From positions 2,628-66,627 of the forward strand of contig JAUSCZ010000022.1 in assembly GCA_030674475.1 (NCBI GenBank): 64,000 bases of DNA, written 5' to 3'. Under the pieces are notes generated by a model. That model saw only the letters and a list, made by a program, of their open reading frames with translations. It was not told the DNA's origin and ran no database searches. Position 1 is the stretch's first letter; every line of letters starts with the position of its first letter. The stretch comes from Candidatus Omnitrophota bacterium (GTDB taxonomy: Bacteria; Omnitrophota; Gorgyraeia; Gygaellales; UBA12090). Shown here one piece after another: positions 404 through 61,454 of this stretch. Made by a program: the position numbers and the translations under genes.

Positions 404-1177
404 CTACTTTAAAATGGCCCGGGCAAATACCAAATCCTCAGGGGTGGTAATCTTGATATTAAAATAAGAGCCTAAAACCACCTTTACTCTTACTCCTGTT
501 TTTTCTACTAAGGAGGCATCGTCGGTTGCCTCTAGATGTCTGTATTTTTTATACGCGTTTATCAGGGTATCTTTTTTAAAAACCTGGGGGGTTTGAATTT
601 CCCAGATATTTTTCCTATCCAGGGTTTCGGATATTTCGTAATTATCTGTTACGCGTTTTAAAGTTGATTTGGAAGGGATAGCGCACACCGCCGCCTGATT
701 AACTTTGGCCGCTTTTACTATTTTGATAATTAATTCTCGTGAGATAAACGGCCTGACCGCGTCATGCACCAGGATAAAATCCGTATCTTTACCTATATGT
801 TTTAAGCAATTGTTTACGGAATCCCGGCGGGTTTTTCCTCCCGGGACTAAAAAGATTTCTTTCTTTATTTTGTATAGCTTTAAAGCCCGCTTAAACTTAC
901 CTAATCCCTCCGGATTGACCGCGATGATAATTCTTTGTATCAAGTCGAGCTTGGCTAATGCTAATAAGGTATGAATGAGTAGGGGTTTTCCGTTTATCTT
1001 TACCAACGGCTTAAGGGTTTTTGATTTCAGCCTCCTGCCGTATCCGGCCGCGGGGATAATCGCTTCAAGATTACCCCTCCCCGCCTCCCCTTGGTAAGGG
1101 GAGGATTTCTTCCCTCCCCGCCTCCCCTTGGTAAGGGGAGGATTTCTTACCCCGCTCTTTCTTGCTGCAGGATACAT
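404..1177 (-). CDS. ispD: 2-C-methyl-D-erythritol 4-phosphate cytidylyltransferase. The 5' coding region carries two tandem in-frame copies of a 38-bp palindromic repeat.
   Basis: Motif IIPAAGYGRRL...VHDAVRPF is typical of IspD. The only canonical start is ATG 1175-1177, immediately after the yacL stop. The N-terminal ~38 aa are encoded by the repeat (..KKSSPYQGEAGRG..). Confidence 0.8.
   Translation of the reverse strand: MYPAARKSGVRNPPLTKGRRGGKKSSPYQGEAGRGNLEAIIPAAGYGRRLKSKTLKPLVKINGKPLLIHTLLALAKLDLIQRIIIAVNPEGLGKFKRALKLYKIKKEIFLVPGGKTRRDSVNNCLKHIGKDTDFILVHDAVRPFISRELIIKIVKAAKVNQAAVCAIPSKSTLKRVTDNYEISETLDRKNIWEIQTPQVFKKDTLINAYKKYRHLEATDDASLVEKTGVRVKVVLGSYFNIKITTPEDLVFARAILK
1074..1148. repeat. 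Two tandem copies (1074-1111, 1112-1148) of a palindromic MITE/REP-like element CCCCTCCCCGCCTCCCCTTGGTAAGGGGAGGATTTCTT
   Basis: Near-identical direct tandem copies, each containing the inverted repeat CCTCCCCTT-GGTA-AGGGGAGG. The same element recurs at 40058-40095 and 46811-46848. Confidence 0.8.
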
Positions 1178-4995: not shown

Positions 4996-5140
4996 AGCAA
5001 CCGCGGAAGCGCAGAATAACCCTTAAATATGCTGTTTTTACCGCAGAAGCGCAGAATAACCCTTAAATATGCTGTTTTCCACAGAGACACAGAACTCTGC
5101 GTCTCTGTGGTTACATCTCTATTTAGAGTCATTCTGCGTC
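4996..5140. repeat. Intercistronic tandem repeat plus hairpin array between mlaE and mlaF
   Basis: Direct repeat CCGC(G/A)GAAGCGCAGAATAACCCTTAAATATGCTGTTTT x2 (4996-5038, 5040-5080). It is followed by the palindrome CACAGAGACACAGAACTCTGCGTCTCTGTGG and a third inverted copy ATTCTGCGTCTCTGCGG. Confidence 0.7.
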
Positions 5141-6991: not shown

Positions 6992-9401
6992 CGTTTTTTT
7001 TGTCCACCCGGACATTAGAGCCTTCCCTAAAACGTTTAGTGATGATCTCTTGAGCCAGAGGATCCTCCACGAACCTCTGGATTATCCTTTTTAAAGGCCT
7101 GGCCCCAAAGACCGGGTCAAAACCTTTTTCAATCAGGAAATCTTTGGCGGCCGGGGTAAGCTCCAGGTTAATCTTTTGCTCCGTAAGCCTTTGGGTAAGA
7201 TAAGCCAGCTCAATATCCACAATTATATGCAGGTCCCCTTTGACTAAGGGCCTGAAGACGATTATATCATCAATCCGGTTAAGAAACTCTGGCTTGAAGG
7301 CGTGCTTTACCTCACCCAAGAGCTTTTCTTTCATTTCCTGATAAGTCAATTCCTCTTTTTGGGATTTGAAGCCTAAAGAGCCTTGCTTGCGGATAAGTTC
7401 CGCCCCAACATTAGAGGTCATAATCACTACGGTATTACGGAAGTCTATCTTTCGGCCGAAGCTGTCCGTGAGCCGTCCGTCTTCAAACACCTGCAATAAC
7501 AGGTTAAAGACATCAGGATGGGCCTTTTCAATTTCATCTAAAAGGATGACCGAATAGGGCCGGCGCCTGACCTTTTCAGTCAACTGTCCGCCTTCCTCAT
7601 AGCCCACATATCCCGGAGGAGCGCCGATTAGCCGGGAGATATTGTGTTTTTCCATATATTCGGACATATCTATCTGAATTAGGGATTCTTCATCGCCGAA
7701 CATAAACTCAGCCAGGGCCCGGGCTAAGAGGGTTTTACCTACGCCGGTCGGCCCTAAGAAAATGAATGAGCCGATAGGCCGGCGGGGGTCTTTAATCCCG
7801 GCCCGGGAACGCCGGGTGGCATTAGCAATTGCCGAGATGGCCTCTTCCTGGCCAACTACCCGCTTATGCAGATTTTCTTCAATTTTAAGTAGTTTTTCGC
7901 CCTCCTTTTCCTCTAAACGAAAAAGTGGGATTCTTGTCCATTGCGAAACTATCTTGGCAATGCTTTCGTAGTCTATCTGGGGGCGCATCTGGTCTTTCTT
8001 TTGGCTCCACTCCTTATTTACCTTCTCCAGTTCCAGGCGGGCCTGCCTTTCCTGGTCGCGCAGGGCCGCGGCCTTTTCAAAATCCTGGGATTTTATCAGG
8101 GCTTCCTTTTCTTTCTTTAAGGCCTCTACTTTTGCCTCAAATTCTTTGATGTCCGGGGGAATTACTAAGACGTTTAACCTGGCCCGGGAACCGGATTCAT
8201 CAATCAGGTCAATGGCTTTATCCGGAAGGAACCGGCCGGAGATATAGCGGTCGGATAATTTCGCCGCCGCCTCTAAAGCCTCATCTAAGAACTTTACTTT
8301 GTGATGGGCTTCGTATTTATCCCTTAAGCCTTTAAGTATCTCAACTGTCTGCGGGACGTTCGGCGGCTCAACCATTATGGTCTGAAATCTTCTTTCCAGG
8401 GCCGCGTCTTTCTCAATGTATTTGCGGTATTCATCCAGGGTAGTGGCGCCGATGCACTGGATTTCTCCCCGGGATAAGGATGGTTTTAAAATATTGGAGG
8501 CATCTATTGCTCCCTCAGCCGCTCCGGCCCCGACTAAGGTATGTAGTTCGTCTATGAATATGATTACATCCTGAGAGCGTTTGATTTCTTCCATTACCGC
8601 CTTAATCCGCTCTTCAAACTGGCCGCGGTATTTAGTCCCGGCAACCATCAGGGCTAAATCCAGGATTATCAGGCGTTTATTTCTTAAGACCTCCGGAATA
8701 TTCTCGTTAACGATTAATTGGGCTAATCCCTCAACAATCGCGGTTTTTCCCACCCCAGCCTCACCCAGAAGCACTGGGTTATTTTTGGTGCGCCGGGATA
8801 AAATCTGGATAATCCGCTCAATCTCAGCTTTGCGGTCAATTACCGGGTCAAGCTTACCTTCTTTGGCGGCCTGGGTAAGATCCCGGCCAAAGGCATCCAG
8901 GGCCGGGGTTTTGGTTTTTCCGTGCGGGGCCTGTTGTTGTTGCTGCGGGCTAAAACCGGGGGTAGCCGCTCCCAGAACCGACATAATTTCGTTCTTTACT
9001 CTTTCTAAATCCAATCCTAAATTAAGCAAAACCTGCGAGGCCACGGACTCGCCCTCCCGGATTATCCCTAACAAGATGTGTTCAGTGCCGATATAATTGT
9101 GGCCCAGGGAACGGGCCTCTTCAGCCGCCAACTCCAGGGCCTTTTTTGCCCTGGGGGTAAAGGGAATATCCCCTAATATCTGGGTGGTTGGCCCGGGCTG
9201 GACCACTTTTTCTACTTCTAAGCGGATGGTTTGCAGGTCTAAGCCCAGTTTTTCTAAGACCGCCGCCGCTACTCCTTCGCCTTCCCGGATTAAACCTAAC
9301 AGTATATGTTCAGTTCCGATATAATCGTGGTTAAAACGCCTGGCCTCCTCTTTAGCTAAAATAATGACCTTTCTTGCTCTTTCAGTAAAACGATTAAACA
9401 T
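6972..9401 (-). CDS. clpC: ATP-dependent Clp protease ATP-binding subunit ClpC
   Basis: Two Clp_N repeats, two AAA+ modules ([18 protein letters not shown]), a UVR-like linker and a ClpB_D2-small C-terminus. The true start is [12 protein letters not shown] at 9401; the track ORF is extended by 17 codons. Confidence 0.9.
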
Positions 9402-9430: not shown

Positions 9431-9578
9431 TAAGTAAAAAGTTAAAACGCAAAAGGCAAAACTACAAGGAAAAAGTTAAAGCTGGATTGAAAATAAGTGC
9501 CTTTTTTCACTTTAGTCCTAATTTTACCTTTTGACTTTTGGTTTTACTTTTTTACTTTTACCTTTTTACTTTCATTTT
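9431..9578. repeat. AT-rich long inverted repeat (copy a) between mcsB stop and clpC start
   Basis: The arms TAAGTAAAAAGTTAAAACGCAAAAGGCAAAAC... and ...CCTTTTGACTTTTGGTTTTACTTTTTTACTTTTACCTTTTTACTTTC are largely complementary. Both contain AAGTAAAAAG and AAAAGTCAAAA cores and are related to 11171-11280. Confidence 0.6.
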
Positions 9579-10621
9579 ATTAACTTACTTCTAATCAAGC
9601 TTGCCCTTTTGATATCTCTTTCCTGGCTGTTGAGCTTCTTGCTTTCTAACTTTTGCAGATGCGCGGGCTGAATCAGGATAAATAATTCATTCACTGTTCT
9701 GCGGTCAGTGTCCTTAATGATGTTTAAGTCAATACCCAGCCTGAGCATGGAAAGTAATTCTGTGGTCTCCTGCGATGAGATGATAAAGGAGTTTTTGAGT
9801 ATGCCTAAGGAGCGCCAGACCCGGTCTTCTAAAAGAGTCTTCTGCTGCTTTAGGAGGACACCTCTGGCGGTTTCCTCATGCTCGATAACCTGGCGGATAA
9901 GCCCGTTGATGTTGCTGATAATCTCATCTTCATTATGCCCCAAAGAAATCTGGTTAGAAATCTGAAAGAAATTTCCGATAGCCTGGGTTCCTTCTCCGTA
10001 AAGGCCCCGGGTGGTAAAGCTTAGTTTGGCAATGGCTGAGAGGACCTTATCTATGGTCCTGAGCATTACCAAAGCCGGCAAATGCAGCATCACTGAGCCG
10101 CGCATCCCGGTTCCGGTATTGGTGGGGCAGGCGGTTAAGTAGCCGTATTCCGAGGAGAAGGCGAAGCTTAGCTCTTTGGAAAGGGCGTCGTCAATCCGGT
10201 TCATTATCTCCCAGGCGTCCAGCAAGTCAAAGCCGGATTTCATTACCTGGAGCCTGAGGTGGTCCTCTTCGTTAATCATTATAGATATAATTTCATCATC
10301 GTCAATGACTACCGCCTTGGAGTTGGGCTTAGAGGCCTGTTCCCGGCTCATCAGATGGCGCTCTACCAGAAACTGTTTATCCACGTTATCCATCTCGGAA
10401 AGCTTAAAATAGGTATTTCTTTTAAGGTATTCCACCTTCTGGATAGCTTGATAAATAATGCCGGCGGTTTCATCTCCCTGGGTTTTATCCGCCCAATGGG
10501 GAAAGAACCTGGCCATAATGTTCCTGGCCAGCCTTATCCGGCTGGAAATCACAATATCGGAATTTGGCCCGCTTCCTTTAAGCCATTCGCTGGAATGGCT
10601 AAGTAAATCGTCTAATTTCAC
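9572..10621 (-). CDS. mcsB: Protein arginine kinase McsB (ATP:guanido phosphotransferase)
   Basis: Phosphagen-kinase active-site motif CPTNTGTGMRGSVMLHLPAL, 349 aa, between mcsA and clpC. Confidence 0.85.
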   Translation of the reverse strand: MKLDDLLSHSSEWLKGSGPNSDIVISSRIRLARNIMARFFPHWADKTQGDETAGIIYQAIQKVEYLKRNTYFKLSEMDNVDKQFLVERHLMSREQASKPNSKAVVIDDDEIISIMINEEDHLRLQVMKSGFDLLDAWEIMNRIDDALSKELSFAFSSEYGYLTACPTNTGTGMRGSVMLHLPALVMLRTIDKVLSAIAKLSFTTRGLYGEGTQAIGNFFQISNQISLGHNEDEIISNINGLIRQVIEHEETARGVLLKQQKTLLEDRVWRSLGILKNSFIISSQETTELLSMLRLGIDLNIIKDTDRRTVNELFILIQPAHLQKLESKKLNSQERDIKRASLIRSKLIK

Positions 10622-11170: not shown

Positions 11171-11280
11171 CTCAAAAGTAAAAAGGAAAAAGTCAAAACC
11201 ACAAGTTAAAATTTAAAAGTAAAAAAATATATCATAAGAGCTAAGTTTTAACTTTTTAATTTTGCCTTTTTACTTTTGAG
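11171..11280. repeat. AT-rich palindromic element (copy b) with perfect 16-bp terminal inverted repeats, upstream of the mcsA start
   Basis: CTCAAAAGTAAAAAGG at 11171-11186 is the exact reverse complement of CCTTTTTACTTTTGAG at 11265-11280. The interior contains AAAAGTCAAAACC. Confidence 0.65.
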
Positions 11281-11287
11281 TTTTTAT

Positions 11288-12160
11288 TTAATATTTGACT
11301 CCCTCTTTCTTGGTAACTTTATGGAATTCTTCTCTTAGTTTTAGGGTCATCTTCCCGGGCTTGCTATCTCCGATTTTCCGGCCGTCCACGCAGACCACCG
11401 GAATAATTTCAGCCGCGGTCCCGGTCAAGAAACATTCATCCGAAATATACACCTCGTGCCGGGTTATGACGTGTTCATGAACAGAAATCCCTTTTTTTGA
11501 GGCTATTTCCAGGATAGTGTCCCGGGTTATCCCGCGCAGGGTCCCCATACACTGGGGCGGGGTGTAAAGTTCATTTTTCTTAACGATAAAAATGTTATCT
11601 CCGGTGCATTCAGCCACATACCCCAGGGAATCCAGCATAATCGCTTCTTCATATCCGCAGTTGATGGCCTCAATTTTAGCCAAGATGTTGTTCAGGTAAT
11701 TCAGGGATTTGATTTGAGGGTTAAGGGCCTCGGGAAGATTGCGAACAGTCGCAACCGTGATGATTTTTAGCCCCTCCTGGTATAGTTTTTCCGGATAAAG
11801 GGCAATCTTATCGGTAATGATCACGATAGTGGCGTTGCCGTTACATTTACGGGGGTCAAGTCCCAGGTCGCCCTCACCCCGGGAAACAATCAGGCGGATA
11901 TAGGCGTCATCTAACTTATTTATTTTGAGGGTATCACAGACCGCCTTAGTCAGATTTTCTTTACTCGTAGGTATCTTTAGGCAGATGCTCTGGGCCGACT
12001 CGTATAATCTTTCAATATGCTCTTTTAACTTAAAGACCACCCGGCCGTAAGACCGTATTCCTTCAAAAACCCCGTCTCCGTAAAGGAAGCCGTGGTCAAA
12101 GACCGAAACCTTGGCATCTTTTTTTTCGTAGAATTTTCCGTTAATGTAAACTTTCATCAT
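11288..12160 (-). CDS. ilvE: Branched-chain-amino-acid aminotransferase (class IV, PLP-dependent)
   Basis: 290 aa with a class IV aminotransferase fold signature (FDHGFLYGDGVFEGIRSY, ...EAIMLDSLGYVAECTGDNIF). Confidence 0.75.
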   Translation of the reverse strand: MMKVYINGKFYEKKDAKVSVFDHGFLYGDGVFEGIRSYGRVVFKLKEHIERLYESAQSICLKIPTSKENLTKAVCDTLKINKLDDAYIRLIVSRGEGDLGLDPRKCNGNATIVIITDKIALYPEKLYQEGLKIITVATVRNLPEALNPQIKSLNYLNNILAKIEAINCGYEEAIMLDSLGYVAECTGDNIFIVKKNELYTPPQCMGTLRGITRDTILEIASKKGISVHEHVITRHEVYISDECFLTGTAAEIIPVVCVDGRKIGDSKPGKMTLKLREEFHKVTKKEGVKY

Positions 12161-27101: not shown

Positions 27102-27175
27102 TGGGCGCAATAGGATTCGAACCTATGACCTCCACAATGTGAATGTGACGCTCTAACCAGCTGAGCCATGCGCCC
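27102..27175 (-). tRNA. tRNA-Val(CAC)
   Basis: Minus strand GGGCGCAUGGCUCAGCUGGUUAGAGCGUCACAUUCACAUUGUGGAGGUCAUAGGUUCGAAUCCUAUUGCGCCCA folds as a cloverleaf with anticodon loop UUCACAU. Confidence 0.75.
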
Positions 27176-27189
27176 GAAAGTTGCTTTAC

Positions 27190-27263
27190 TGGGCCCAGGA
27201 GGATTCGAACCTTCGACCAAGTGATTATGAGTCACCTGCTCTAACCGACTGAGCTATGGGCCC
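27190..27263 (-). tRNA. tRNA with CAU anticodon (elongator Met or lysidine-modified Ile2)
   Basis: GGGCCCAUAGCUCAGUCGGUUAGAGCAGGUGACUCAUAAUCACUUGGUCGAAGGUUCGAAUCCUCCUGGGCCCA. U8, GCUC/GAGC D-stem, anticodon loop CUCAUAA. It lacks initiator features (no GGG:CCC anticodon stem, no 1:72 mismatch). Confidence 0.7.
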
Positions 27264-28564: not shown

Positions 28565-28637
28565 AGCTGGCGGCCCGAATCGAACGGGCGACCACCTCAT
28601 TACAAATGAGGAGCTCTACCAATTGAGCTACGCCAGC
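28565..28637 (-). tRNA. tRNA-Thr(UGU)
   Basis: GCUGGCGUAGCUCAAUUGGUAGAGCUCCUCAUUUGUAAUGAGGUGGUCGCCCGUUCGAUUCGGGCCGCCAGCU. Anticodon loop UUUGUAA. Confidence 0.75.
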
Positions 28638-28639
28638 AA

Positions 28640-28800
28640 ATTTCAAAATAACCAATAATCAATCATCAATAACCAAAGAATAACCAAACACCAAACATCA
28701 ATAACCAAACAATAGATTAGTTTTCCGATTTATCATTGATTATTGGTTATTGGGTATTGGGTATTGGGTATTTTTTGGTTATTGGATCTTGGTTATTGAT
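28640..28800. repeat. Long imperfect inverted repeat rich in AACCAA/TTGGTT, with a 3x GGGTATT tandem
   Basis: Left arm AATAACCAATAATCAATCATCAATAACCAAAGAATAACCAAACACCAAACATCAATAACCAAAC. Right arm ATCATTGATTATTGGTTATTGGGTATTGGGTATTGGGTATTTTTTGGTTATTGGATCTTGGTTATTGATTATT. Confidence 0.6.
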
Positions 28801-32884: not shown

Positions 32885-34816
32885 TTATGGCTTTGGCTGT
32901 ATGGAAGCCAAACCATTGCCTTGCTGGCTTATGGGTGAGCTTATTTCTAATTGTGGTTCTGGTTTTGGCTCCAGGCCAAGCAGTCGCCTGACCTCGGCTC
33001 CGTCTAAAACCTCTTTTTCTAATAAAGCGGAGGAGACTAACTTCAGCTTATCCTCTTTTTCCTGGAGGAGTTTTTTGGCCTGGGCATAACATTCATCCAC
33101 AATCCGTTTCACCTCTTCATCAATCATCCTGGCGGTGTCTTCGCTGTAGTTTCTTTCCTCCACTATATCCCGGCCTAAAAATAAGGGGCCGTGCGCCCGG
33201 CCTAAGGTAATATTTCCTAAGCGTTCGCTCATTCCGAAACTACAGATCATTTTTTTAGCGATATGGGTGGCGTTTTCCAGGTCGCTTCCGGCTCCGGTAG
33301 TAACATCGCCAAAGCTTAACTCTTCAGAAACCCTTCCACCCAGAAGTATGGTAATTTCTCCTAAAAACTCTTTTTTGGAGCGGTAACTGCGGTCTTCAAT
33401 AGGCGGAGTTAAGGTGTAACCTCCGGCCATTCCCCGGGGGATGATGGAAACCTTGGTTACCGGATTAACCTCAGGCACTAATAAGGATAAAATAGCATGT
33501 CCGGCCTCATGAAAGGCGGTAAGTTCTTTTTCCCGTTTCGACATTACCTTACTTTTTTTCTCCGGGCCGATCATTACCCGCTCAATCGCCGCCTCCAGCT
33601 CAACCTGCTCCACCGCCTCTTTATTGCGCCGGGCAGCCAAAAGCGCGGCCTCATTACAGAGATTAGCCAGGTCCGCCCCGGAAAACATTGAGGTATGCTG
33701 AGCAGTCAGCCTTAAGTTTACATTAGGGGAAAGCTTTATCTTTCGGACATGCACCTTAAGAATTTCCTCTCTCCCGACAATATCCGGTAAGTTTACCACA
33801 ATATGCCGGTCAAATCTCCCGGGACGTAAAAGCGCCGGGTCTAAGGTATCCGGCCGGTTGGTGGCGGCAATCAAAATTAAACCCTCGACGGTGTCAAAGC
33901 CGTCCATCTCCACCAAAAGTTGATTAAGGGTTTGTTCTCTTTCGTAGTGGCCGCCGCCGATACCGGCAAAGCGCAGTCTGCCCACCGCGTCAATTTCATC
34001 AATAAAGATAATCGCCCCCTTACCCGAGGCCTTACCCGCCTTGCGGCCCTGCTCAAATAAATCCCTGACCCGGGAAGCCCCCACACCCACAAACATCTCC
34101 ACAACCTCCGAGCCGCTGATAGAGAAAAAAGGCACCTCGGCCTCACCGGCCACCGCCTTGGCCAGCAGAGTTTTACCGCATCCCGGAGGGCCAACCAATA
34201 AAACCCCCTTAGGGATTTTGCCGCCTAATTTTTGAAATTTCTTAGGATCTTTTAAGAATTCAATAACCTCCTGAAGCTCTTCCTTGGCCTCATCCACTCC
34301 GGCCACATCTTTAAAAGTAATCTTTTGATTTTTTCCTTCCTCGGCCAATTTCGGCCTGATTTTGCCAAAACCCATAATCCGATTGCCTAATTGTTCTCCC
34401 CGGGAAGCCATAAGCCACCAGAATAAAATCAAAAGCAAAACCGGGCCCAGGGAAAATAACAGAGAAATCAGAAGCGGCTGGGTCTTGATTTCAAAATTTT
34501 CTATATTCTCCCTTAACGCGGGAATCAAATCCTTGTCATTATCGGGGATCAATACAAAGAACTTGGTTTTATCCTTAAGCTGTCCTTCCAGGCGGCCGTC
34601 TATTTTGGCCGTGTAAACGATATTTCCGGTAGAGGGATTTTCCTTGAGCAGGCGGTAGAAATCGCCGTATTTTATCTCCTTAGTCGGCGCGGCAATATTA
34701 ACAAAGTTTATCACGTAGAAAAGAGCCAATATTATCAGCATCCAGAATATATTGGGTTTCTTTTGGCTGTTTAACTTATTTAATTTTGGTTTTAATTTAG
34801 GAAGATTAGCACTCAT
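32885..34816 (-). CDS. ftsH: ATP-dependent zinc metalloprotease FtsH
   Basis: N-terminal TM, AAA+ [11 protein letters not shown], zinc-binding HEAGHA, 643 aa. The 3' end carries GCCTTGCTGGCTTATGG direct repeats. Confidence 0.9.
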
Positions 34817-34921: not shown

Positions 34922-35044
34922 GCCTTATTTAGGCGCTAGTGTAATGCGTCAGTAAACAGGGGAAAATCTCCCCTCGCCCCTCTTTATAAAAGAGGGGGTA
35001 AAAATTCCCCCTTTGACAAGCCAGAGGGCGGTGGTTTGGCTTTC

Positions 35045-35075
35045 AATGTAGGGGCAGGTTCAGAACCTGCCCCTA
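35045..35075. repeat. Palindrome GTAGGGGCAGGTTCAGAACCTGCCCCTAC (family H, copy 2)
   Basis: Downstream of the tilS stop, inside a cluster of G/C-stem hairpins at 34940-35100. Confidence 0.7.
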
Positions 35076-35116: not shown

Positions 35117-36115
35117 TCACTGATCGGTTACGCGCAAGTAGATATCAAGAAATTCCTGGTTTTTACGGGTTGAGATATGAGAGGGCAAATCTACGACAGA
35201 GCCTTGAGGCCGGCAATACATTAAATCCCGGAGTTCGCGGATATGCTGATAGGTGAGCCTGCGGGTATCCCCTTTCAACTCTTCAAAACTCAGGCGCAAA
35301 ATGATATTTTGCAGGGCGGGGTGCAGGCTTAAAAATTTTTCTAAAGGAAGCTTCAATTGTTTCAGCTTGATAATTTTTATCTTATTAAACGCCTTCAAGG
35401 CGCTGGTATATAAAAAATCATAATCATAAGCCGCTGTCTGGGCGGTTCCGGCTAAAACCTCTTTGATGTTAGGATTATATTTTTCTAATTCCGGAAGCAA
35501 TGTCCGGCGCAGACGGTTCCGGAAATAAATTTCCCTGAGATTGCTGGAATCTACGCGGGAGGTTATTTTCTTGAGCCGTAAAAAACTCTCTATATCTTTC
35601 CTTTTGATTCCAAGCAGGGGCCGAATAATCGTAAAACCGCCGATTTTTCTCTTGGGTAAGATTGCCGCTAATCCTAAAAGTCCGCTGCCTCTTATCAAGC
35701 GCATCAAAACCGTCTCGGCCTGATCGTCTTGATTGTGGCCTAAGGCTATTTTGGTCAGGTGGTTTTCTTTGGCGGTTTGAAAAAGAAAATCAAACCTTAT
35801 CTTCCTGGCGGATTCTTCCGAGCAACAGGTTTTTGCCGCCCTTGAAACATCAACTTTTTTAAAGAAGGCCGGTATCTTTAGCTTCTCAGATAACTTTTTG
35901 ACAAATTCCTGGTCTTGATCGGATTCCCGGCCTCTTAAGGAATGATTCAGGTGGCCGATATACAACTTAAGGCTAAACTCTTCTTTTAGCGCGTTCAGGG
36001 CATAGAGCAGACAAACCGAATCCGGCCCGCCGGAAAGGCCGATTAAGATTTTATCCCGCGCATTGATCAGCTGGTATTGTTTTATGAATTTCCTGACTTT
36101 TTCCGGCAAGGTCAT
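35117..36115 (-). CDS. tilS: tRNA(Ile)-lysidine synthetase
   Basis: PP-loop LSGGPDSVCLLY, 332 aa. Confidence 0.85.
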   Translation of the reverse strand: MTLPEKVRKFIKQYQLINARDKILIGLSGGPDSVCLLYALNALKEEFSLKLYIGHLNHSLRGRESDQDQEFVKKLSEKLKIPAFFKKVDVSRAAKTCCSEESARKIRFDFLFQTAKENHLTKIALGHNQDDQAETVLMRLIRGSGLLGLAAILPKRKIGGFTIIRPLLGIKRKDIESFLRLKKITSRVDSSNLREIYFRNRLRRTLLPELEKYNPNIKEVLAGTAQTAAYDYDFLYTSALKAFNKIKIIKLKQLKLPLEKFLSLHPALQNIILRLSFEELKGDTRRLTYQHIRELRDLMYCRPQGSVVDLPSHISTRKNQEFLDIYLRVTDQ

Positions 36116-37139: not shown

Positions 37140-37255
37140 AGTAGTGCTATTGAACAATAGAACAATAGAAAATAGACCGCAATTGAGCGTTGTTTGTTTA
37201 TTGTTCTATTGTCTATTGTCTATTGCTCTATAAATTTTCGCATAGCGGAAATTTA
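37140..37255. repeat. Inverted repeat with CAATAGA tandem units plus hairpin AAATTTTCGCATAGCGGAAATTT, immediately 3' of tRNA-CAU
   Basis: GAACAATAGAACAATAGAAAATAGAC ... GTTCTATTGTCTATTGTCTATTGCTC. Confidence 0.55.
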
Positions 37256-37329
37256 TAGCGAGGGGCGGACTTGAACCGCCGACACTGCGGGTATGAGCCG
37301 CATGCTCTAACCAACTGAGCTACCTCGCC
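37256..37329 (-). tRNA. tRNA with CAU anticodon (Met or Ile2)
   Basis: GGCGAGGUAGCUCAGUUGGUUAGAGCAUGCGGCUCAUACCCGCAGUGUCGGCGGUUCAAGUCCGCCCCUCGCUA. Anticodon loop CUCAUAC. Confidence 0.7.
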
Positions 37330-37373
37330 ATCTTAGTGCCTATTTTACTGTATTTGGCCTGTTAAATAAAGAT

Positions 37374-40021: not shown

Positions 40022-40057
40022 ATTCCTCCACTGTGCTTAAGGAGTAACTGGTTTTTA

Positions 40058-40095
40058 CCCCTCCCCGCCTCCCCTTGCTAAGGGGAGGATTTCTT
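40058..40095. repeat. MITE/REP-like palindromic element copy 3 (variant TTGCTA centre)
   Basis: CCCCTCCCCGCCTCCCCTTGCTAAGGGGAGGATTTCTT overlaps the last 6 codons and stop of the RACo gene (..GKKSSP*). Confidence 0.8.
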
Positions 40096-42027
40096 ACCAG
40101 TTACGCTGGGAAACTTAGATAAATCCGTATGGGGAAAAAACAAGGATGCCATATATTCATCCATATACCCCGGCTCAACCGACAGTTCAAAATAGGTTAT
40201 CTTTTTGGCAATCTCATCCGCGTCCATAATCGCCTCGTGGGAAAGCAGTATCTGTCGCGCGCCTACCAGGGAGCTGTTACCCACAAAGACAAATTTCTCT
40301 CTTGGTAGATCCGGCAGTAAACCGATAAATATGGCGTTGGGCATATCCACATAGGTGCCGAATCCTCCGCCGATATACACTTGCTCCAAATCATTAAAAC
40401 CAAACCCCATATGATTAACCAGCATTGCCGAGGCGGCGTATATCGCCCCTTTTGCCCGTTTTATATTCTCAATATCCATCTCATTAACTATCAGGTCGAC
40501 AGTTGTGCCGAGGCCTTCTTTAAAAGCAAGCACAAATTCCCGACCATACTCTCCTTCACGAATACGCCTATGGATGAGCTTAGGATCAAATTTTCCGCCG
40601 CGGTCAATAATCCCGGCCCTTAATAACTCGGCTATCGCGTCAATATAACCCGAACCGCAGACCCCGGATGCCGGGGTATCCAGGATAGTAGAATAAGTTA
40701 CCTCAAAGGTCTCAGGATTAATTTTTACCTTTTGGATCGCGCCTCGGGATGCCCGCATGCCGCAGGTAACCCCACTGCCTTCAAAGGCCGGCCCGGCGGA
40801 GGCCGCGCAGGCAATCAGCCAGTCTTTGCTCCCCAGGACTATTTCGCCGTTAGTGCCGATATCAATCAACAGGCTTAATTTCTCGGTCTTATCCATGCCG
40901 CAGGCTAAAACCCCCGCGGTAATATCTCCTCCCACATAGCTGGATATCCCGGGCACGCAGGCCAGAAGCCCGCGGGGATTTATTTTAATCCCGGCCTCAT
41001 AAGCCCTGACCACCGGAATAAAATTGGCCGTAGGCACATAAGGCTCCCTGCGAATATAGGTAGGGTCAACCCTAAGCAAAAGATGCATCATAGTGGTATT
41101 TCCAGCGCACAAACAGCAGGTTACATCATTGAGGTCAATATTGTTTTCCCGGGTCAGCTCCTGAATCATCAGATTCATCTCATCAATTACCGCGTGATGC
41201 AATTTCTCCAGGCCGTCGGTGCCCTGAGCAAAGATAATCCGGGTAATCACATCCGAGCCGTAAGAGGCCTGCTTATTGTAGGCGGCCTTGGTGCCGAGTA
41301 TTTTTTTGGTATTTAAGTCAATCAGCTGTCCGCAAATAGTAGTGGTGCCGATATCAAAGGCGAATCCAAAGTTGCGCTTTGAGGTATCTCCCGGCTCAAG
41401 TATCACAATTTCGGTGGTGCCGTTACGTTTGCCTAAAGTCGCGGTAATCTTCCAATCGCTTGAGCGCAATAGTTCTCCCAGCCTTCTAATATTAGACAGG
41501 CCGGTTTGTAACACCGGGAGGTCCTGCAAAGAACGGATTTGCCGGTAAAGCCGTTCCAAATCGCTGATTTTATCCTCCAGATTAGGCTTGGGCAGGTCCA
41601 GATATAGTTTACTGGCCAAAGGAGAGTGGATAAAGATATTTTCTCCTAAGATAGAGTCACCCTTATCCGTGTCCTCCGGCTCACTGAATATGCCTTTAAG
41701 CCGAAGCATATGGGCGTCATCTTTGGCCAATGTCCCGGAGTCTAAGCGGGATTCAGCCGGCACCTCTACCTCCAGATCGCTCTGGGCAACGCTAAGACAA
41801 GAAAGATGGTAGCCCTTTTTCCTCTCCTCAGCGCTGATTCTTCCGGTAGGCAAACTGACGGCCTGGCCTTTTTTAAGGATCACCTTACAGCGGCCACAGA
41901 CCCCGTCTCCGCCGCAGCTGGAATTGATATGTATTCCGGCAGAGATAGCCGCCGAAAGCAGGGTTATCCCCTTTTCCACTTCTACGGTTTTGTTGTCCGG
42001 TAAAAAAGTTATTTTGAATTTATCCAT
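40078..42027 (-). CDS. Reductive activator of corrinoid Fe-S protein (RACo): N-terminal 2Fe-2S ferredoxin domain plus ASKHA ATPase
   Basis: N-terminal plant-type ferredoxin cysteines CGGDGVCGRC and a long DUF4445/ASKHA body. 649 aa, located between acsC and cooC. Confidence 0.7.
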   Translation of the reverse strand: MDKFKITFLPDNKTVEVEKGITLLSAAISAGIHINSSCGGDGVCGRCKVILKKGQAVSLPTGRISAEERKKGYHLSCLSVAQSDLEVEVPAESRLDSGTLAKDDAHMLRLKGIFSEPEDTDKGDSILGENIFIHSPLASKLYLDLPKPNLEDKISDLERLYRQIRSLQDLPVLQTGLSNIRRLGELLRSSDWKITATLGKRNGTTEIVILEPGDTSKRNFGFAFDIGTTTICGQLIDLNTKKILGTKAAYNKQASYGSDVITRIIFAQGTDGLEKLHHAVIDEMNLMIQELTRENNIDLNDVTCCLCAGNTTMMHLLLRVDPTYIRREPYVPTANFIPVVRAYEAGIKINPRGLLACVPGISSYVGGDITAGVLACGMDKTEKLSLLIDIGTNGEIVLGSKDWLIACAASAGPAFEGSGVTCGMRASRGAIQKVKINPETFEVTYSTILDTPASGVCGSGYIDAIAELLRAGIIDRGGKFDPKLIHRRIREGEYGREFVLAFKEGLGTTVDLIVNEMDIENIKRAKGAIYAASAMLVNHMGFGFNDLEQVYIGGGFGTYVDMPNAIFIGLLPDLPREKFVFVGNSSLVGARQILLSHEAIMDADEIAKKITYFELSVEPGYMDEYMASLFFPHTDLSKFPSVTGKKSSP

Positions 42028-46155: not shown

Positions 46156-46178
46156 CTTTAAGTCAGTGACTGGTTGAT

Positions 46179-46201
46179 AGTTGATAGTTGATGGCTTATG
46201 G
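46179..46201 (-). promoter_or_regulatory. 23-mer AGTTGATAGTTGATGGCTTATGG upstream of nfnA (shared with the dnaE upstream region)
   Basis: 22/23 identical to 61395-61417. Both are followed by CTATAAAC-containing repeats. Confidence 0.5.
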
Positions 46202-46236
46202 ATTTTCGCTATACACTATAAACCATACACTATAAA

Positions 46237-47205
46237 CTATTTCTCAATTATTTTAACTTCTACGCCGTCCATTTTTCCGGCCAACTCGAGACCTTTTTCT
46301 TTTCCTAAGACGAACACGGTTGTGCTCAGGCCATCGCTGGTGGCGGCATCCGGAGCAATAATAGTTACCGAGGAGATATTGTTATCCACAGGCCAGCCGG
46401 TTTTAGGGTCAATGATATGGCTGTAGCGTTTTTTGTCCAGAATAAAAAACTGCTCGTAGTCGCCGGAGGTAGCCGCCCCCTGATTCTCTAAATCCAGATA
46501 AAAGACAATCTCCGCGGGCTTGCGGGGATGGCGCACACCGATACGCCATTTGCGGCTTCCCTTTTTACCTAAGCAATAGACATTGCCTCCGGCATTGACT
46601 AAGGCGGATCGCACGCCTGATTCTTTAAGCCGCCTTACCGCCTTATCCACGGCATAGCCCTTGGCGATTGCCCCTAAATCAATAGACATTCCAGATTGGG
46701 TGAAACTCATGGAAGAGGTGCTATCATCCAGGCTGATTTTATCTGAACCCACCAGGCTAAGGGCTCTTTTAATCTGGCTTTCTGACGGCAAGGTTAATCC
46801 GCGGCTCTTACCCCTCCCCGCCTCCCCTTGGTAAGGGGAGGATTTTTTATTTTCAAATTCCCGGATTTTTTCTTTCCAAATATTAACCAGCGGCGCGACG
46901 GTGATATCAAAGGCTCCTTCGGAAAGACGGTAGTATTTCAAAGACTCTCTAACCATATTATACAAATCCTGGCTGGCCTGAATTTTTCCCGCGGCATTAA
47001 GGCGGGATATCTCGGAATCAGGATTAAAATTATTGGCGATTGTTTCAATCTTTTTTATCTCCTCAAAAGCTGAGGTGATGGCCGCGCGATCTTGACAGGT
47101 AATCTCCACGATTGTGCCCAGCATCAAGCGGGCTTCTTTGTGATAGGGCTGAAAAGAACATCCGGCCAATCCCAGAATCAAAATTAAAAATTTTATCTTT
47201 TTCAT
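46237..47205 (-). CDS. apbE: FAD:protein FMN transferase (ApbE/Ftp) lipoprotein with an in-frame MITE insertion
   Basis: Lipobox LAGC, ApbE motifs (DLGAIAKGYAVDKA, SGDYEQ, HIIDP). The palindromic repeat at 46811-46848 encodes an inserted KKSSPYQGEAGRGKSRG segment. Confidence 0.75.
   Translation of the reverse strand: MKKIKFLILILGLAGCSFQPYHKEARLMLGTIVEITCQDRAAITSAFEEIKKIETIANNFNPDSEISRLNAAGKIQASQDLYNMVRESLKYYRLSEGAFDITVAPLVNIWKEKIREFENKKSSPYQGEAGRGKSRGLTLPSESQIKRALSLVGSDKISLDDSTSSMSFTQSGMSIDLGAIAKGYAVDKAVRRLKESGVRSALVNAGGNVYCLGKKGSRKWRIGVRHPRKPAEIVFYLDLENQGAATSGDYEQFFILDKKRYSHIIDPKTGWPVDNNISSVTIIAPDAATSDGLSTTVFVLGKEKGLELAGKMDGVEVKIIEK
46811..46848. repeat. MITE/REP-like palindromic element copy 4, in frame inside apbE
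   Basis: CCCCTCCCCGCCTCCCCTTGGTAAGGGGAGGATTTTTT. Confidence 0.8.
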
Positions 47206-61378: not shown

Positions 61379-61394
61379 TTTAAAATCAGTTTAT

Positions 61395-61417
61395 AGTTGA
61401 TAGTTTATGGCTTATGG
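61395..61417 (-). promoter_or_regulatory. 23-mer AGTTGATAGTTTATGGCTTATGG upstream of dnaE
   Basis: Shared with 46179-46201 (1 mismatch). Followed by CTATCAACAATAAACTATAAAC. Confidence 0.5.
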
Positions 61418-61454
61418 CTCCTTAGCTATCAACAATAAACTATAAACTAAATTA

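What the first reader, a model, noticed from the sequence alone, without database searches (positions are those of the whole stretch)
1074..1148. Palindromic ~38-bp mobile-like repeat inserted in frame inside coding sequences (ispD, apbE, RACo 3' end)
Four near-identical copies of CCCCTCCCCGCCTCCCCTTGGTAAGGGGAGGATTTCTT occur: two in tandem at 1074-1148, one at 40058-40095 and one at 46811-46848. Each has an internal inverted repeat CCTCCCCTT/AAGGGGAGG. Each is bounded by TTA(C) on both sides, which resembles target-site duplication. All four overlap coding sequence without breaking the frame. The tandem pair is 75 nt (25 codons) and lengthens the ispD N-terminus. One copy adds KKSSPYQGEAGRGKS to the middle of ApbE. 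One supplies the last codons and stop of RACo. The same peptide SSPYQGEAGRG is therefore encoded in unrelated proteins. This looks like a miniature inverted-repeat or REP-like element that is tolerated, or selected, as in-frame insertions.
Basis: seen in the sequence. Interest (0 to 1): 0.6.

Follow-up and report, generated by a model that had tools for sequence, protein, structure and literature searches.

The report
Tiny hairpin mobile element inside genes
A 36-base hairpin-forming piece of selfish DNA that adds exactly 13 codons where it lands sits in frame in three genes of this Omnitrophota-like genome, and the same sequence lies at the ends of small DUF559 endonuclease gene cassettes in several bacterial phyla.

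Summary
Four near-identical copies lie at 1074-1109, 1112-1146, 40058-40093 and 46811-46846; none is expected by chance. All four overlap open reading frames on the minus strand.

- **ApbE:** alignment with orthologues and a syntenic empty site show a clean 39-nt, 13-codon insertion. It consists of a 36-nt element plus a duplicated TAA, and it falls in a disordered loop.
- **RACo:** the element replaces the last codons, and the stop codon lies in the hairpin loop.
- **ispD:** the only canonical start codon lies upstream of two copies, which are read in two different frames. Small deletions of 2 nt and 1 nt keep the frame open.

Related Omnitrophota contigs carry about 27 distinct sites. About 12 are inside real ORFs, including a histidine-kinase ATPase domain, a PilZ domain and guanylate kinase. 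In every one the G-rich strand is the sense strand.

The new result concerns the 32-nt core, which occurs in many phyla. In 574 kb of DNA retrieved by the motif alone, the only recurrent neighbouring gene is a DUF559 (Vsr-like) endonuclease, and the module sits 3-45 nt upstream of it. A related inverted hairpin lies at the 3' end of that gene.

My best reading is a miniature, ORF-compatible, non-autonomous derivative of DUF559 cassettes. Mobilisation by the DUF559 protein is inferred, not shown.

The parts
1074..1109 (-). Element copy E1, 36 nt. The G-rich strand is the - strand: GAAATCCTCCCCTTACCAAGGGGAGGCGGGGAGGGG. The ispD ORF reads it as KKSSPYQGEAGRG.
1112..1146 (-). Element copy E2, 35 nt, lacking its first C on the + strand. 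It lies in tandem with E1 across the junction TT (1110-1111). The ispD ORF reads it in the other open frame, as RNPPLTKGRRGG.
1071..1073 (.). TTA flank of the tandem pair (TAA on the - strand). Its partner is at 1147-1149.
1147..1149 (.). TTA flank of the tandem pair, partner of 1071-1073.
404..1177 (-). ispD ORF. The only ATG/GTG/TTG in frame lies upstream of both element copies, immediately after the stop of the upstream PIN-domain gene (1179-2159).
40058..40093 (-). Element copy E3, 36 nt, with loop GCT on the + strand, flanked by TTA at 40055-40057 and 40094-40096. It supplies the last 4 codons (KSSP, from AAA TCC TCC CCT) and the TAG stop of RACo. The preceding Lys codon AAG spans the flanking TAA and the element's first base.
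40078..42027 (-). RACo-like ORF whose 3' end runs into E3. Its stop codon is the complement of + strand 40078-40080, in the hairpin loop.
46811..46846 (-). Element copy E4, 36 nt, flanked by TTA at 46808-46810 and 46847-46849. Together with one TAA it forms the 39-nt, 13-codon insertion in ApbE.
46237..47205 (-). ApbE / FAD:protein FMN transferase ORF. The insert is residues 123-135 and lies in a disordered loop between helices 104-121 and 142-149.
34968..34997 (+). Related 'B-type' hairpin with a C-run (CTCCCCTCG-CCCCTCTTT-ATA-AAAGAGGGG), intergenic. It resembles the 3'-end hairpin of DUF559 cassettes (CCTCCCCTA-CCCCTCCTT-NNN-AAGGAGGGG).

Best explanation
The repeat is a miniature, non-autonomous mobile DNA element of 36 nt. 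It consists of a 9-bp GC-rich hairpin with a free 3-nt loop, a G-run (CGGGGAGGGG) on one side and GAAAT on the other.

**Why it is tolerated in genes.** It is found at TAA sites with TAA on both sides, so each insertion adds exactly 39 nt, or 13 codons. A TAA inside an ORF is by definition out of frame. With the consensus loop, the G-rich strand has no stop in the two remaining frames. An insertion with the G-rich strand as sense strand therefore neither shifts nor truncates the host protein. It only adds a Gly/Pro/charged 13-residue loop, KKSSPYQGEAGRG or NPPLTKGRRGGV. Copies survive where such a loop is harmless: at N-termini, at C-termini and in surface loops.

**Where it comes from.** The element is the 5'-end module ('A') of small gene cassettes that encode a roughly 110-130-aa DUF559 (Vsr/EDxHD-like, PD-(D/E)xK) endonuclease. 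The 3' end of each cassette carries a related inverted hairpin ('B'). Solo copies match the DUF559-linked copy of the same lineage base for base.

**What is shown and what is inferred.** Shown: the insertion polarity, the 39-nt size, the single TAA at the empty site, in-frame tolerance in many proteins, distribution across phyla, and exclusive physical linkage to DUF559 genes. Inferred: that the DUF559 endonuclease mobilises both the cassettes and the solo modules (my estimate is about 0.4-0.5), and whether the mechanism is transposition or break-induced copying.
For: **Copies and chance.** Four copies against 0 expected.

**ApbE.** The 13-aa insert is present only in the window and in P0001 among 18 orthologues. 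The empty site in syntenic L091 reads GAAAATAA|GACCCGG. The occupied site reads GAAAATAA[36 nt]TAA GAGCCGC. The insert has pLDDT <50 in a model with mean pLDDT 85.9 that matches ApbE/Ftp structures at TM 0.82.

**ispD.**
- Most orthologues start M[IKS]VEAIIPAAG.
- L095/L096, 95% identical to the window, lack the element.
- L034 has one copy in frame.
- The window has two copies plus deletions of 2 nt and 1 nt, which keep the frame.
- L097 keeps an in-frame, hairpin-deleted remnant.
- Neither the window nor L098 has an alternative canonical start.

**Other in-frame copies.** These lie inside a HATPase_c domain, inside a PilZ domain, at the Gmk N-terminus, in a MurD-like ORF and in a PheT-like ORF. 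About 12 of 27 unique sites are in ORFs, all with the G strand as sense. TAA flanks 13 of 29 copies upstream and 16 of 28 downstream, and most of the rest are one mismatch away.

**Distribution.** The core ACCCCWCCCCGCCTCCCCTT-NNN-AAGGGGAGG is found in Nitrospirota, Omnitrophota, Patescibacteria, Bacteroidota (including one cultured isolate), Delta- and Gammaproteobacteria MAGs and Nitrospinota.

**DUF559 link.**
- All 8 DUF559 genes in 574 kb of motif-selected DNA lie 0-45 nt from a module. Seven have it directly upstream in the sense orientation.
- An unbiased clustering of all ORFs within 600 nt of a module finds DUF559 as the only family recurrent across phyla.
- In the reciprocal test, 4 of 4 DUF559 genes chosen from the protein side carry an A-like module upstream, with lineage-specific variants.
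- About half of the top 120 homologues end in a B-hairpin-encoded tail.
- A gene-less fusion of the two ends forms a ~100-nt MITE-like repeat (~190-200 nt with family-specific flanks) in Manganitrophaceae.

**Stem.** Pairing is kept through C:G to T:A double changes at 5 of 9 positions.
Against: - No DUF559 gene lies in the 64-kb window, and the rest of the source genome could not be inspected.
- DUF559 proteins are not known transposases, and no activity has been shown for them on these hairpins.
- Only one clean empty site (ApbE) defines the 36+3 structure. A TAA duplication cannot be told apart from an element that ends in TAA and inserts 3' of a TAA.
- The tandem junction and the ispD site need additional small deletions to fit the model.
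- At RACo the syntenic L091 sequence differs by about 3 nt from the empty site the 36+3 model predicts, so that site does not independently confirm the TAA duplication.
- Some larger composites in related contigs have outer 26-27-nt inverted repeats. In L100 these are flanked by a 6-8-bp direct repeat, which hints that a conventional transposase encoded elsewhere could move the cassettes.
- The orientation bias could reflect replication-strand bias rather than selection, because all genes near the window copies are on the same strand.
- The hairpins used for the covariation count were hand-picked as hairpins.
- Many hits come from MAGs, where binning errors are possible.
Confidence: 0.7

Rival explanations
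1. The hairpin is an independent REP-like or SDR-like tiny element moved by some other enzyme (a RAYT/IS200-type Y1 transposase, or a DDE transposase acting on the outer inverted repeats). DUF559 genes are merely frequent neighbours, either because the module likes to insert upstream of them or because they use it as a ribosome-binding or promoter module.
For: Solo copies in the window lack the outer inverted repeats and the B hairpin, so they behave as units of their own. Composite elements have outer 26-27-nt TIRs, and one is flanked by a 6-8-bp direct repeat typical of DDE transposition. The flanking TTAC recalls the IS608 target, which I cite from my own knowledge. The module ends in GGAGGGG 3-8 nt before the DUF559 start, so it could serve as a Shine-Dalgarno sequence.
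Against: No transposase family recurs near the module in 574 kb from many phyla; only DUF559 does. The module keeps a fixed position relative to the DUF559 start across phyla, and its sequence variants track the DUF559 lineage. This fits co-inheritance better than repeated independent insertion.
Confidence: 0.2
2. The copies are host-beneficial cis elements. On the + strand they would act as intrinsic terminators that stop antisense transcription. On the - strand they would stabilise mRNA or provide a ribosome-binding site. Under this view they are maintained for that function rather than as selfish DNA.
For: On the + strand the copies at 40068 and 46821 are the best terminator-like sites in a 9-kb scan: a 9-bp stem with 6 GC pairs followed by a T-rich tail. 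The hairpin is predicted to be stable at about -16 to -18 kcal/mol. In many related loci the G-rich orientation lies just upstream of genes.
Against: Terminator-like sites in that scan are no more frequent than in shuffled sequence (14 against 11.8). Three of the four window copies lie inside coding sequence, antisense to any + strand transcript, and no + strand genes are nearby. The presence/absence polymorphism between close relatives, the decay of copies (P0001, P0129, L097) and the identical DNA in unrelated genes all fit recent spread rather than conserved regulation.
Confidence: 0.08
3. The module spreads by break repair or gene conversion rather than transposition. The DUF559 nuclease, or another nuclease, nicks at TAA-containing sites, and a copy of the hairpin is patched in by templated repair or strand slippage. 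Tandem copies arise by slippage.
For: Relatives of DUF559 are homing and mismatch-nicking endonucleases (3hrl match; PMC3424549 group 58; PMC3239194; PMC9403480). Tandem pairs recur independently in the window, L059 and L068. One composite repeat exists both with and without the [gene-B-A] insert next to a resident A, which resembles homing into a repeated target.
Against: Classical homing needs flanking homology, which ApbE, RACo and ispD do not share. The clean 3-nt duplication at ApbE is more typical of a staggered-cut insertion.
Confidence: 0.15
4. The peptide segments are ancestral or convergent low-complexity protein features, or an assembly artefact, and not inserted DNA.
For: Gly/Pro-rich linkers are common in proteins. 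The ispD extension is shared by several lineages.
Against: Sixteen of 18 ApbE orthologues lack the segment, including close ones. The same 36 nt is 97-100% identical across unrelated genes and is read in two frames. Orthologous copies appear in independent assemblies (L034, L072, P0001).
Confidence: 0.02

Closest known systems
Rickettsia palindromic elements (RPE; Ogata et al. 2000, as summarised in PMC10969869)
   Same: Both are palindromic selfish DNA found in frame inside many unrelated, often essential, protein-coding genes. Both add a peptide segment that the protein fold tolerates.
   Different: RPEs are about 100-150 bp, are restricted to Rickettsia and have no associated gene. This element is 36 nt plus a 3-nt duplication, occurs across phyla, is read in two alternative frames and is physically linked to DUF559 endonuclease genes.
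REP / REPIN elements with RAYT transposases (PMC3116915)
   Same: Both are short (20-40 nt), GC-rich, imperfect palindromes present in many copies. In both, the same sequence flanks a small single gene thought to mobilise them. Both also build larger composites.
   Different: REPs are extragenic by definition and their partner is a Y1 (IS200-like) transposase. Here copies are often intragenic, no Y1 gene was found nearby, and the partner is a PD-(D/E)xK DUF559 protein.
Small dispersed repeats (SDR) of Nostoc (Elhai et al. 2008, Genome Res 18:1484; cited in PMC3116915; details recalled from my own knowledge because the paper is not held)
   Same: Both are very small (21-27 nt in that work) apparently mobile repeats. 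Some form hairpins and are nested inside larger MITE-like elements. No mobilising enzyme is known for either.
   Different: The sequences differ and SDRs are restricted to cyanobacteria. To my knowledge SDRs were not tied to a gene or to a codon-multiple insertion size. A Nostoc DUF559 gene here (L101) is flanked by hairpins of the same architecture, so the two may be related; I did not test this.
Bacterial MITEs such as Correia/NEMIS and ERIC (PMC10969869)
   Same: All are small and non-autonomous, have inverted repeats and a short target duplication, are occasionally found in frame inside genes, and can carry terminator or promoter-like signals.
   Different: Typical MITEs are 100-400 bp, have two TIRs and derive from IS elements that encode DDE transposases. 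This unit is a single 36-nt hairpin module.
EDxHD / Vsr-like homing endonucleases (I-Bth0305I, PMC3239194; 'fractured genes' HEGs, PMC2677866)
   Same: The associated gene belongs to the same PD-(D/E)xK group as Vsr, DUF559 and I-Bth0305I (PMC3424549). It shows the E-x-D-G-x-x-H motif and is a small, apparently selfish, horizontally spread gene.
   Different: Known members sit in group I introns or between split inteins and home into one cognate site. The cassettes here are free-standing, are bounded by hairpin inverted repeats and are accompanied by dispersed solo ends.
IS200/IS605 family (IS608 inserts 3' of TTAC; from my own knowledge)
   Same: Both have subterminal hairpins, a short specific target (TTA[C] here) and a strong strand/orientation bias.
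   Different: No Y1 transposase is present, and those elements make no duplication. Whether the TAA here is duplicated or belongs to the element remains unresolved.

Membership tests
MITE (miniature inverted-repeat transposable element) | Small, non-coding, multi-copy | tested here: met
   The unit is 36 nt. There are 4 copies in 64 kb and about 27 distinct sites in related contigs.
MITE (miniature inverted-repeat transposable element) | Terminal inverted repeats | tested here: inconclusive
   The unit contains one 9-bp inverted repeat (the hairpin arms) rather than two terminal ones. Full cassettes do have two inverted ends, A and B, about 70-75% alike.
MITE (miniature inverted-repeat transposable element) | Target-site duplication | tested here: met
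   The ApbE empty site has one TAA and the occupied site has TAA on both sides. TAA or a one-mismatch variant flanks most copies. An element that ends in TAA cannot be excluded.
MITE (miniature inverted-repeat transposable element) | Shares its ends with an autonomous element that encodes a transposase | tested here: inconclusive
   The element shares 39 of 39 nt with the 5' end of a DUF559 cassette (L064). DUF559 is not a known transposase.
REP/REPIN-RAYT | Extragenic location | tested here: not met
   About 12 of 27 sites are inside ORFs.
REP/REPIN-RAYT | Associated Y1 (RAYT) transposase gene flanked by the repeat | tested here: not met
   ORF clustering around the modules finds only DUF559 as a recurrent neighbour. 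Whole genomes were not searched.
Rickettsia palindromic elements | In-frame insertion into unrelated protein-coding genes | tested here: met
   Seen in ApbE, IspD, RACo, a histidine kinase, a PilZ protein, Gmk, a MurD-like ORF and a PheT-like ORF.
Rickettsia palindromic elements | Length of about 100-150 bp and membership of the RPE sequence families of Rickettsia | tested here: not met
   The element is 36 nt with an unrelated sequence, and the hosts are Omnitrophota and other phyla.
DUF559 / Vsr-like endonuclease (the associated gene, not the repeat) | Match to Pfam PF04480 above the gathering score | tested here: met
   E-values of 1e-27 to 4e-32 for five module-adjacent ORFs. PDB 3hrl matches at 7e-12.
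Homing endonuclease gene | The encoded nuclease cleaves the element-free allele and the gene is copied into the break | not testable with these tools
   The only supporting observation is the 'A-gene-B-A' versus 'A' composite pair (L065 against L069/L089). No biochemistry is available.
Intrinsic (Rho-independent) terminator | GC-rich stem followed by a U-run | tested here: met
   The + strand copies at 40068 and 46821 top the consensus scan.
Intrinsic (Rho-independent) terminator | Located at the 3' end of a co-oriented transcription unit | tested here: not met
   All neighbouring genes are on the opposite strand, and three copies lie inside coding sequence.
IS200/IS605 | Y1 transposase and insertion 3' of a fixed tetra- or pentanucleotide without duplication | tested here: inconclusive
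   The TTA(C) target is compatible with this. No Y1 gene lies near any module. Duplication cannot be told apart from an element-borne TAA.
Known RNA families (Rfam 15) | Match at or near the gathering score | tested here: not met
   The best hit scores 17.5 bits against a gathering score of 49.5.

The most novel reading that the evidence does not exclude
DUF559 proteins, a very widespread 'domain of unknown function', may be the nucleases of a previously unrecognised class of tiny mobile elements found across phyla. In this reading a cassette of roughly 0.5 kb is bounded by hairpin-plus-G-run inverted ends. Its 36-nt end module can multiply on its own. Because it adds 13 stop-free codons at TAA sites, it is effectively built to survive inside protein-coding genes. 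It would be a general, RPE-like source of new protein loops well beyond Rickettsia.
Probability: 0.35. Interest if true: 0.8.

Novelty: new variant of a known kind. Interest (0 to 1): 0.62.

Why it matters
In-frame selfish palindromes in genes have essentially been a Rickettsia curiosity. This finding shows the same phenomenon in free-living, uncultivated bacteria, with a much smaller unit. It also offers a simple structural reason why the copies are tolerated: 39 nt added at an out-of-frame TAA, with no stops on the sense strand.

The finding gives a concrete, testable role to DUF559, a domain present in thousands of genomes with no assigned biology. It explains recurrent annotation oddities such as PPLxKGRxGGV, SSPYQGEAGRG and SPTPPCKGGD stretches at protein termini and in loops.

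It also matters for annotating MAGs. Start-codon calls, apparent N-terminal extensions and 'novel' inserts in essential enzymes may be element-derived.

Tried and rejected
- **Rfam.** A scan of the tandem region at a permissive E-value gave only sub-threshold noise.
- **Folding.** Single-strand folding shows just the 9-bp hairpin. The - strand fold is no better than shuffled sequence, so I did not pursue an RNA gene.
- **CRISPR-like array.** Rejected, because the tandem copies are head to tail with no spacer and the other copies are dispersed.
- **Alternative ispD start.** I looked for one supplied by the element. The TTG after GGAGGGG is out of frame and runs into a stop, and no in-frame ATG/GTG/TTG lies near EAIIP.
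- **DUF559 gene in the window.** None was found (tblastn).
- **Phage carriage.** Two scans of viral contigs with the module pattern found nothing.
- **Other recurrent neighbouring genes.** No transposase family recurs near the modules.
- **Literature.** Searches for DUF559, Vsr-like homing endonucleases, small dispersed repeats and in-frame palindromic elements found no description of DUF559 genes bounded by these hairpins. The nearest hint is a 14-fold enrichment of DUF559 proteins next to predicted invertible repeats (PMC9881135). The Elhai 2008 paper could not be opened.
- **Non-family hit.** One genome hit, L012 (Thermoanaerobaculia), lacks the ACCCC prefix and was treated as not belonging to the family.
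- **Covariation count.** The count on the stem is only indicative, because I chose the sequences as hairpins.
Full report
**1. The observation**

All four are on the + strand, and none is expected in shuffled sequence. The 21-nt hairpin core and the 17-nt C-run each recover only these four places. A repeat search groups them into one family.

Every neighbouring gene is on the - strand:
- an IspD ORF at 404-1177;
- a RACo-like ORF at 40078-42027;
- an ApbE ORF at 46237-47205.

Close homologues of the ApbE and IspD proteins are labelled Candidatus Omnitrophota by their sources. Read on the - strand the unit is GAAAT-CCTCCCCTT-ACC-AAGGGGAGG-CGGGGAGGGG.

**2. Are these insertions?**

*ApbE.* An alignment of 18 orthologues shows a 13-residue segment (KKSSPYQGEAGRG) only in the window protein and in one 92%-identical relative. 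It is absent from proteins 86-90% identical and from all more distant ones.

A syntenic contig from a related population (L091) supplies the empty site:
- empty: GAAAATAA|GACCCGG;
- window: GAAAATAA[AAAATCCTCCCCTTACCAAGGGGAGGCGGGGAGGGG]TAA GAGCCGC.

The gain is exactly 39 nt, made up of a 36-nt element plus a second TAA. In an AlphaFold model (mean pLDDT 85.9) that matches solved ApbE/Ftp/FmnB structures at TM 0.82, the insert is the only internal stretch with pLDDT below 50. It lies between two helices.

*RACo.* In L091 the protein ends ...FPSVINK and stops at a TAA at the site. In the window it ends ...FPSVTGKKSSP, with a TAG formed by this copy's loop variant. A second relative (L072) carries the element at the same place with loop GTT, which gives TAA.

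*ispD.* Most orthologues begin M[IKS]VEAIIPAAG. The related loci show a range of states:
- L095 and L096, 95% identical to the window protein, read cggTAAgATGATTGTTGAG and carry no element.
- L034 (UBA12090) has, after the same ATG, an in-frame 69-nt extension containing one copy.
- L098 has a longer extension with one copy.
- L097 has the extension with GTAAGAAAT-GGTGGGGTGAAT. These are the element's two ends with the hairpin (24 nt) removed in frame.
- P0129 has a decayed copy (NNTPPAKGRRREV).

Relative to L034 the window has a second copy. It lacks 2 nt at the junction and the G of L034's second ATG. The net gain is 36 nt, so the ORF stays open while the two copies are read in different frames.

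Neither the window nor L098 has an in-frame ATG, GTG or TTG near EAIIP. A canonical start therefore requires translation through the element. The polarity of events at this site is complicated and I do not claim to have resolved it.

**3. How general is in-frame occurrence?**

A metagenome scan with the lineage-specific form of the motif returned 32 contigs. Together with the UBA12090 contigs from the genome scan, these give about 27 distinct sites.

About 12 sites lie inside long ORFs, and in every case the G-rich strand is the sense strand. Only two reading frames are used, giving KKSSPYQGEAGRG or NPPLTKGRRGGV. Pfam confirms the following:
- a copy, plus a decayed second one, lies inside the HATPase_c domain of a histidine kinase;
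- one copy lies inside a PilZ domain;
- one precedes the guanylate kinase domain.

In other phyla the same core sits in frame in a MurD-like ORF and a PheT-like ORF.

The arithmetic explains the tolerance. The gain is a multiple of three. A TAA inside an ORF cannot be in frame. The G-rich strand has no stop in the other two frames unless the loop creates one, as at RACo.

The complete orientation bias is not explained by stops, because two frames of the C-rich strand are also open. It may reflect termination by the hairpin plus U-run when the C-rich strand is transcribed, or a strand-specific insertion mechanism.

Flanks are TAA in 13 of 29 copies upstream and 16 of 28 downstream. Most of the rest are one mismatch away.

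**4. What is it part of?**

A scan of one genome per species with CCCCGCCTCCCCTTNNNAAGGGGAGG found 58 loci. They come from Omnitrophota, Nitrospirota (Manganitrophaceae, Nitrospira, Thermodesulfovibrionales), Nitrospinota, Patescibacteria, Bacteroidota (including the isolate Prevotellaceae KH2P17), and Delta- and Gammaproteobacteria MAGs. The conserved core is ACCCCWCCCCGCCTCCCCTT-NNN-AAGGGGAGG with a free loop.

In Manganitrophaceae the module lies 8 nt upstream of a 118-aa ORF. A second, related hairpin follows that ORF's stop in inverted orientation. In another genome of the family the two ends are fused without the gene, as a ~100-nt MITE-like repeat core (~190-200 nt with family-specific flanks).

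The ORF is DUF559 (PF04480, E 4e-32), as are module-adjacent ORFs in Nitrospira, a Deltaproteobacteria MAG, Andersenbacteria and Bacteroidota. Two Omnitrophota-type metagenome contigs (L064, L065) carry a DUF559 gene whose upstream 39 nt (TAAGAAAT + core) are identical to the window's solo copies.

In all 574 kb retrieved by the motif alone there are eight DUF559 genes. Every one lies 0-45 nt from a module. Seven have the module directly upstream in the sense orientation, and one has it inverted at the 3' end. Clustering all 614 ORFs within 600 nt of a module finds DUF559 as the only family shared across phyla, and no transposase recurs.

The reciprocal test gave the same answer. Four DUF559 genes were picked from the protein search in long contigs: an 'Actinobacteria' MAG, Nostoc, Thermodesulfovibrionia and one unlabelled. 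All four have an upstream hairpin + G-run + T module, with lineage-specific sequences such as CCCCCCTT..AAGGGGGG-ATTAAGGGGGGT and TCTCCCCTT..AAGGGGAGA. About half of the top 120 homologues end in a tail encoded by the 3' hairpin (SPTPPCKGGD and similar). Some gene calls begin inside the 5' module (PPLGKGRVGGV).

Across these variants the stem stays fully paired, through C:G to T:A double changes at five of nine positions. The sequences were hand-picked, so this is indicative only.

The cassettes can sit inside larger composites:
- L100 has outer 27-nt inverted repeats flanked by a direct TAAATT(T).
- The same outer motif forms the conserved '75-nt tail' seen next to many Omnitrophota copies.
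- One composite exists both without the gene (L069, L089) and with [gene-B-A] added next to the resident A (L065).

**5. Mechanism**

*Shown.* The element is inserted DNA. It adds 39 nt at a TAA. It is tolerated in frame in many proteins. It is shared across phyla. It is the 5' end module of DUF559 cassettes whose 3' end carries a related inverted hairpin.

*Inferred.* The DUF559 endonuclease recognises these hairpin ends and mobilises the cassettes and, in trans, the solo modules.

DUF559 is grouped with Vsr and the homing endonuclease I-Bth0305I in the PD-(D/E)xK classification (PMC3424549). It matches the solved 'endonuclease-like protein' 3hrl. One paper refers to it as part of the EDxHD homing endonuclease family (PMC9403480, citing PMC3239194). 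DUF559 proteins were reported as 14-fold enriched next to predicted invertible repeats (PMC9881135), which fits genes bounded by inverted hairpins.

Whether movement is by staggered-cut insertion or by break-induced copying is open.

**6. Rivals**

- A different, unseen transposase could move the element. The outer TIRs and the 6-8-bp duplication in L100 leave room for this.
- The copies could be regulatory hairpins. On the + strand they look like terminators, but they are antisense to all local genes, lie inside coding sequence, and are polymorphic and decaying.
- The segments could be ancestral protein features or artefacts. The orthologue comparisons and the independent assemblies exclude this.

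**7. Comparison with known elements, and novelty**

Functionally the closest analogue is the Rickettsia palindromic element, which is in-frame selfish DNA in genes (PMC10969869). Structurally and in genetic logic the closest is REP/REPIN with its flanked RAYT gene (PMC3116915). In size the closest are the small dispersed repeats of Nostoc (Elhai 2008, recalled from memory).

The element fails defining features of each:
- it is not extragenic and has no RAYT gene;
- it is not 100-150 bp and not from Rickettsia;
- no IS-type transposase is associated with it.

I found no paper describing DUF559 genes bounded by these hairpins, nor their solo ends in coding sequence. The library is incomplete, so prior description cannot be excluded.

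I classify this as a new variant of a known kind, a tiny palindromic mobile element. There is a substantial chance that the DUF559 link defines a new class of element.

**8. Caveats**

- Only one clean empty site was available.
- Many comparison sequences are MAG or metagenome contigs.
- No experiment links DUF559 to mobility.

Noticed in passing
window 34968-34997 (+), intergenic between ORFs 32885-34816 and 35117-36115: A second kind of hairpin with a C-run (CTCCCCTCG-CCCCTCTTT-ATA-AAAGAGGGG). It resembles the 'B' hairpin at the 3' end of DUF559 cassettes. Another GC hairpin follows at about 35050-35075 (AGGGGCAGGTTCAGAACCTGCCCCT).
   Followed up: partly
L005, L006, L061, L063, L065-L067, L069, L073, L076, L083, L089 (downstream of the module on the G-rich strand): A conserved tail of about 75 nt (TAAGAAAAGCGGCTTTGCGATAAACGAATGAATTTACTCACTCAAAACTTCAAAGAACC) follows the module upstream of unrelated genes. 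Its end is the inverted copy of the motif GGYTCTTTGRAWTTYSAGYGGGTAA found upstream of the module in L064, L069, L100 and L103. This indicates a larger composite MITE of about 150 nt with outer TIRs.
   Followed up: partly
L064, L065, L016, L100, L103 (DUF559 start region): Several module-linked DUF559 genes have ATA or ATT where homologues have the ATG start (ITKAFNRT... against MTKIFNRT...). This suggests either weak non-canonical initiation of a potentially toxic nuclease or recent pseudogenisation.
   Followed up: no
L019 3799-5544 (also L062, L070, L085): A 567-aa protein with an N-terminal transposase-type HTH (weak HTH_33 and HTH_Tnp_Tc3_2 hits) carries two in-frame copies of the element. 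Its own function is unknown.
   Followed up: partly
L101 (Nostoc sp. ChiSLP02 contig): A DUF559 gene sits inside nested palindromic repeats. An outer 77-nt inverted repeat includes hairpins of the same architecture but a different sequence. This may connect to the cyanobacterial small dispersed repeats.
   Followed up: no
window 5000-5078 and 7612-7650: Two tandem copies, 97% identical, of a 39-40-nt unit (ACCGCGGAAGCGCAGAATAACCCTTAAATATGCTGTTTT), with a 67%-similar third copy 2.5 kb away. They are followed by an inverted repeat, CACAGAGACACAGAACTCTGCGTCTCTGTG. Their nature is unknown.
   Followed up: no
window 46173-46240 and 61389-61450: A shared intergenic motif, GTTGATAGTTGATAGTT[G/T]ATGGCTTATGG ... 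ACTATAAACTA, lies just downstream of apbE and again 15 kb away. It may be a regulatory or promoter-region repeat.
   Followed up: no
window 9527-9586 and 11245-11290; 28647-28710: T-rich repeats with a 14-nt period (GTTTTACTTTTTTACTTTT...) occur in two places. A 32-nt tandem AATAACCAA-type repeat lies next to tRNA-Thr.
   Followed up: no
window 27102-27263, 28565-28637, 37255-37330 (-): Four tRNA genes: Val-CAC, Met-CAT, Thr-TGT and Met-CAT. They explain repeat family D6 from the repeat search.
   Followed up: yes
window, whole length: Cumulative GC skew falls steadily across all 64 kb, so the + strand is C-rich throughout, and nearly all inspected genes are on the - strand. The window therefore lies within one replichore, and element orientation, gene orientation and replication direction are confounded.
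   Followed up: partly
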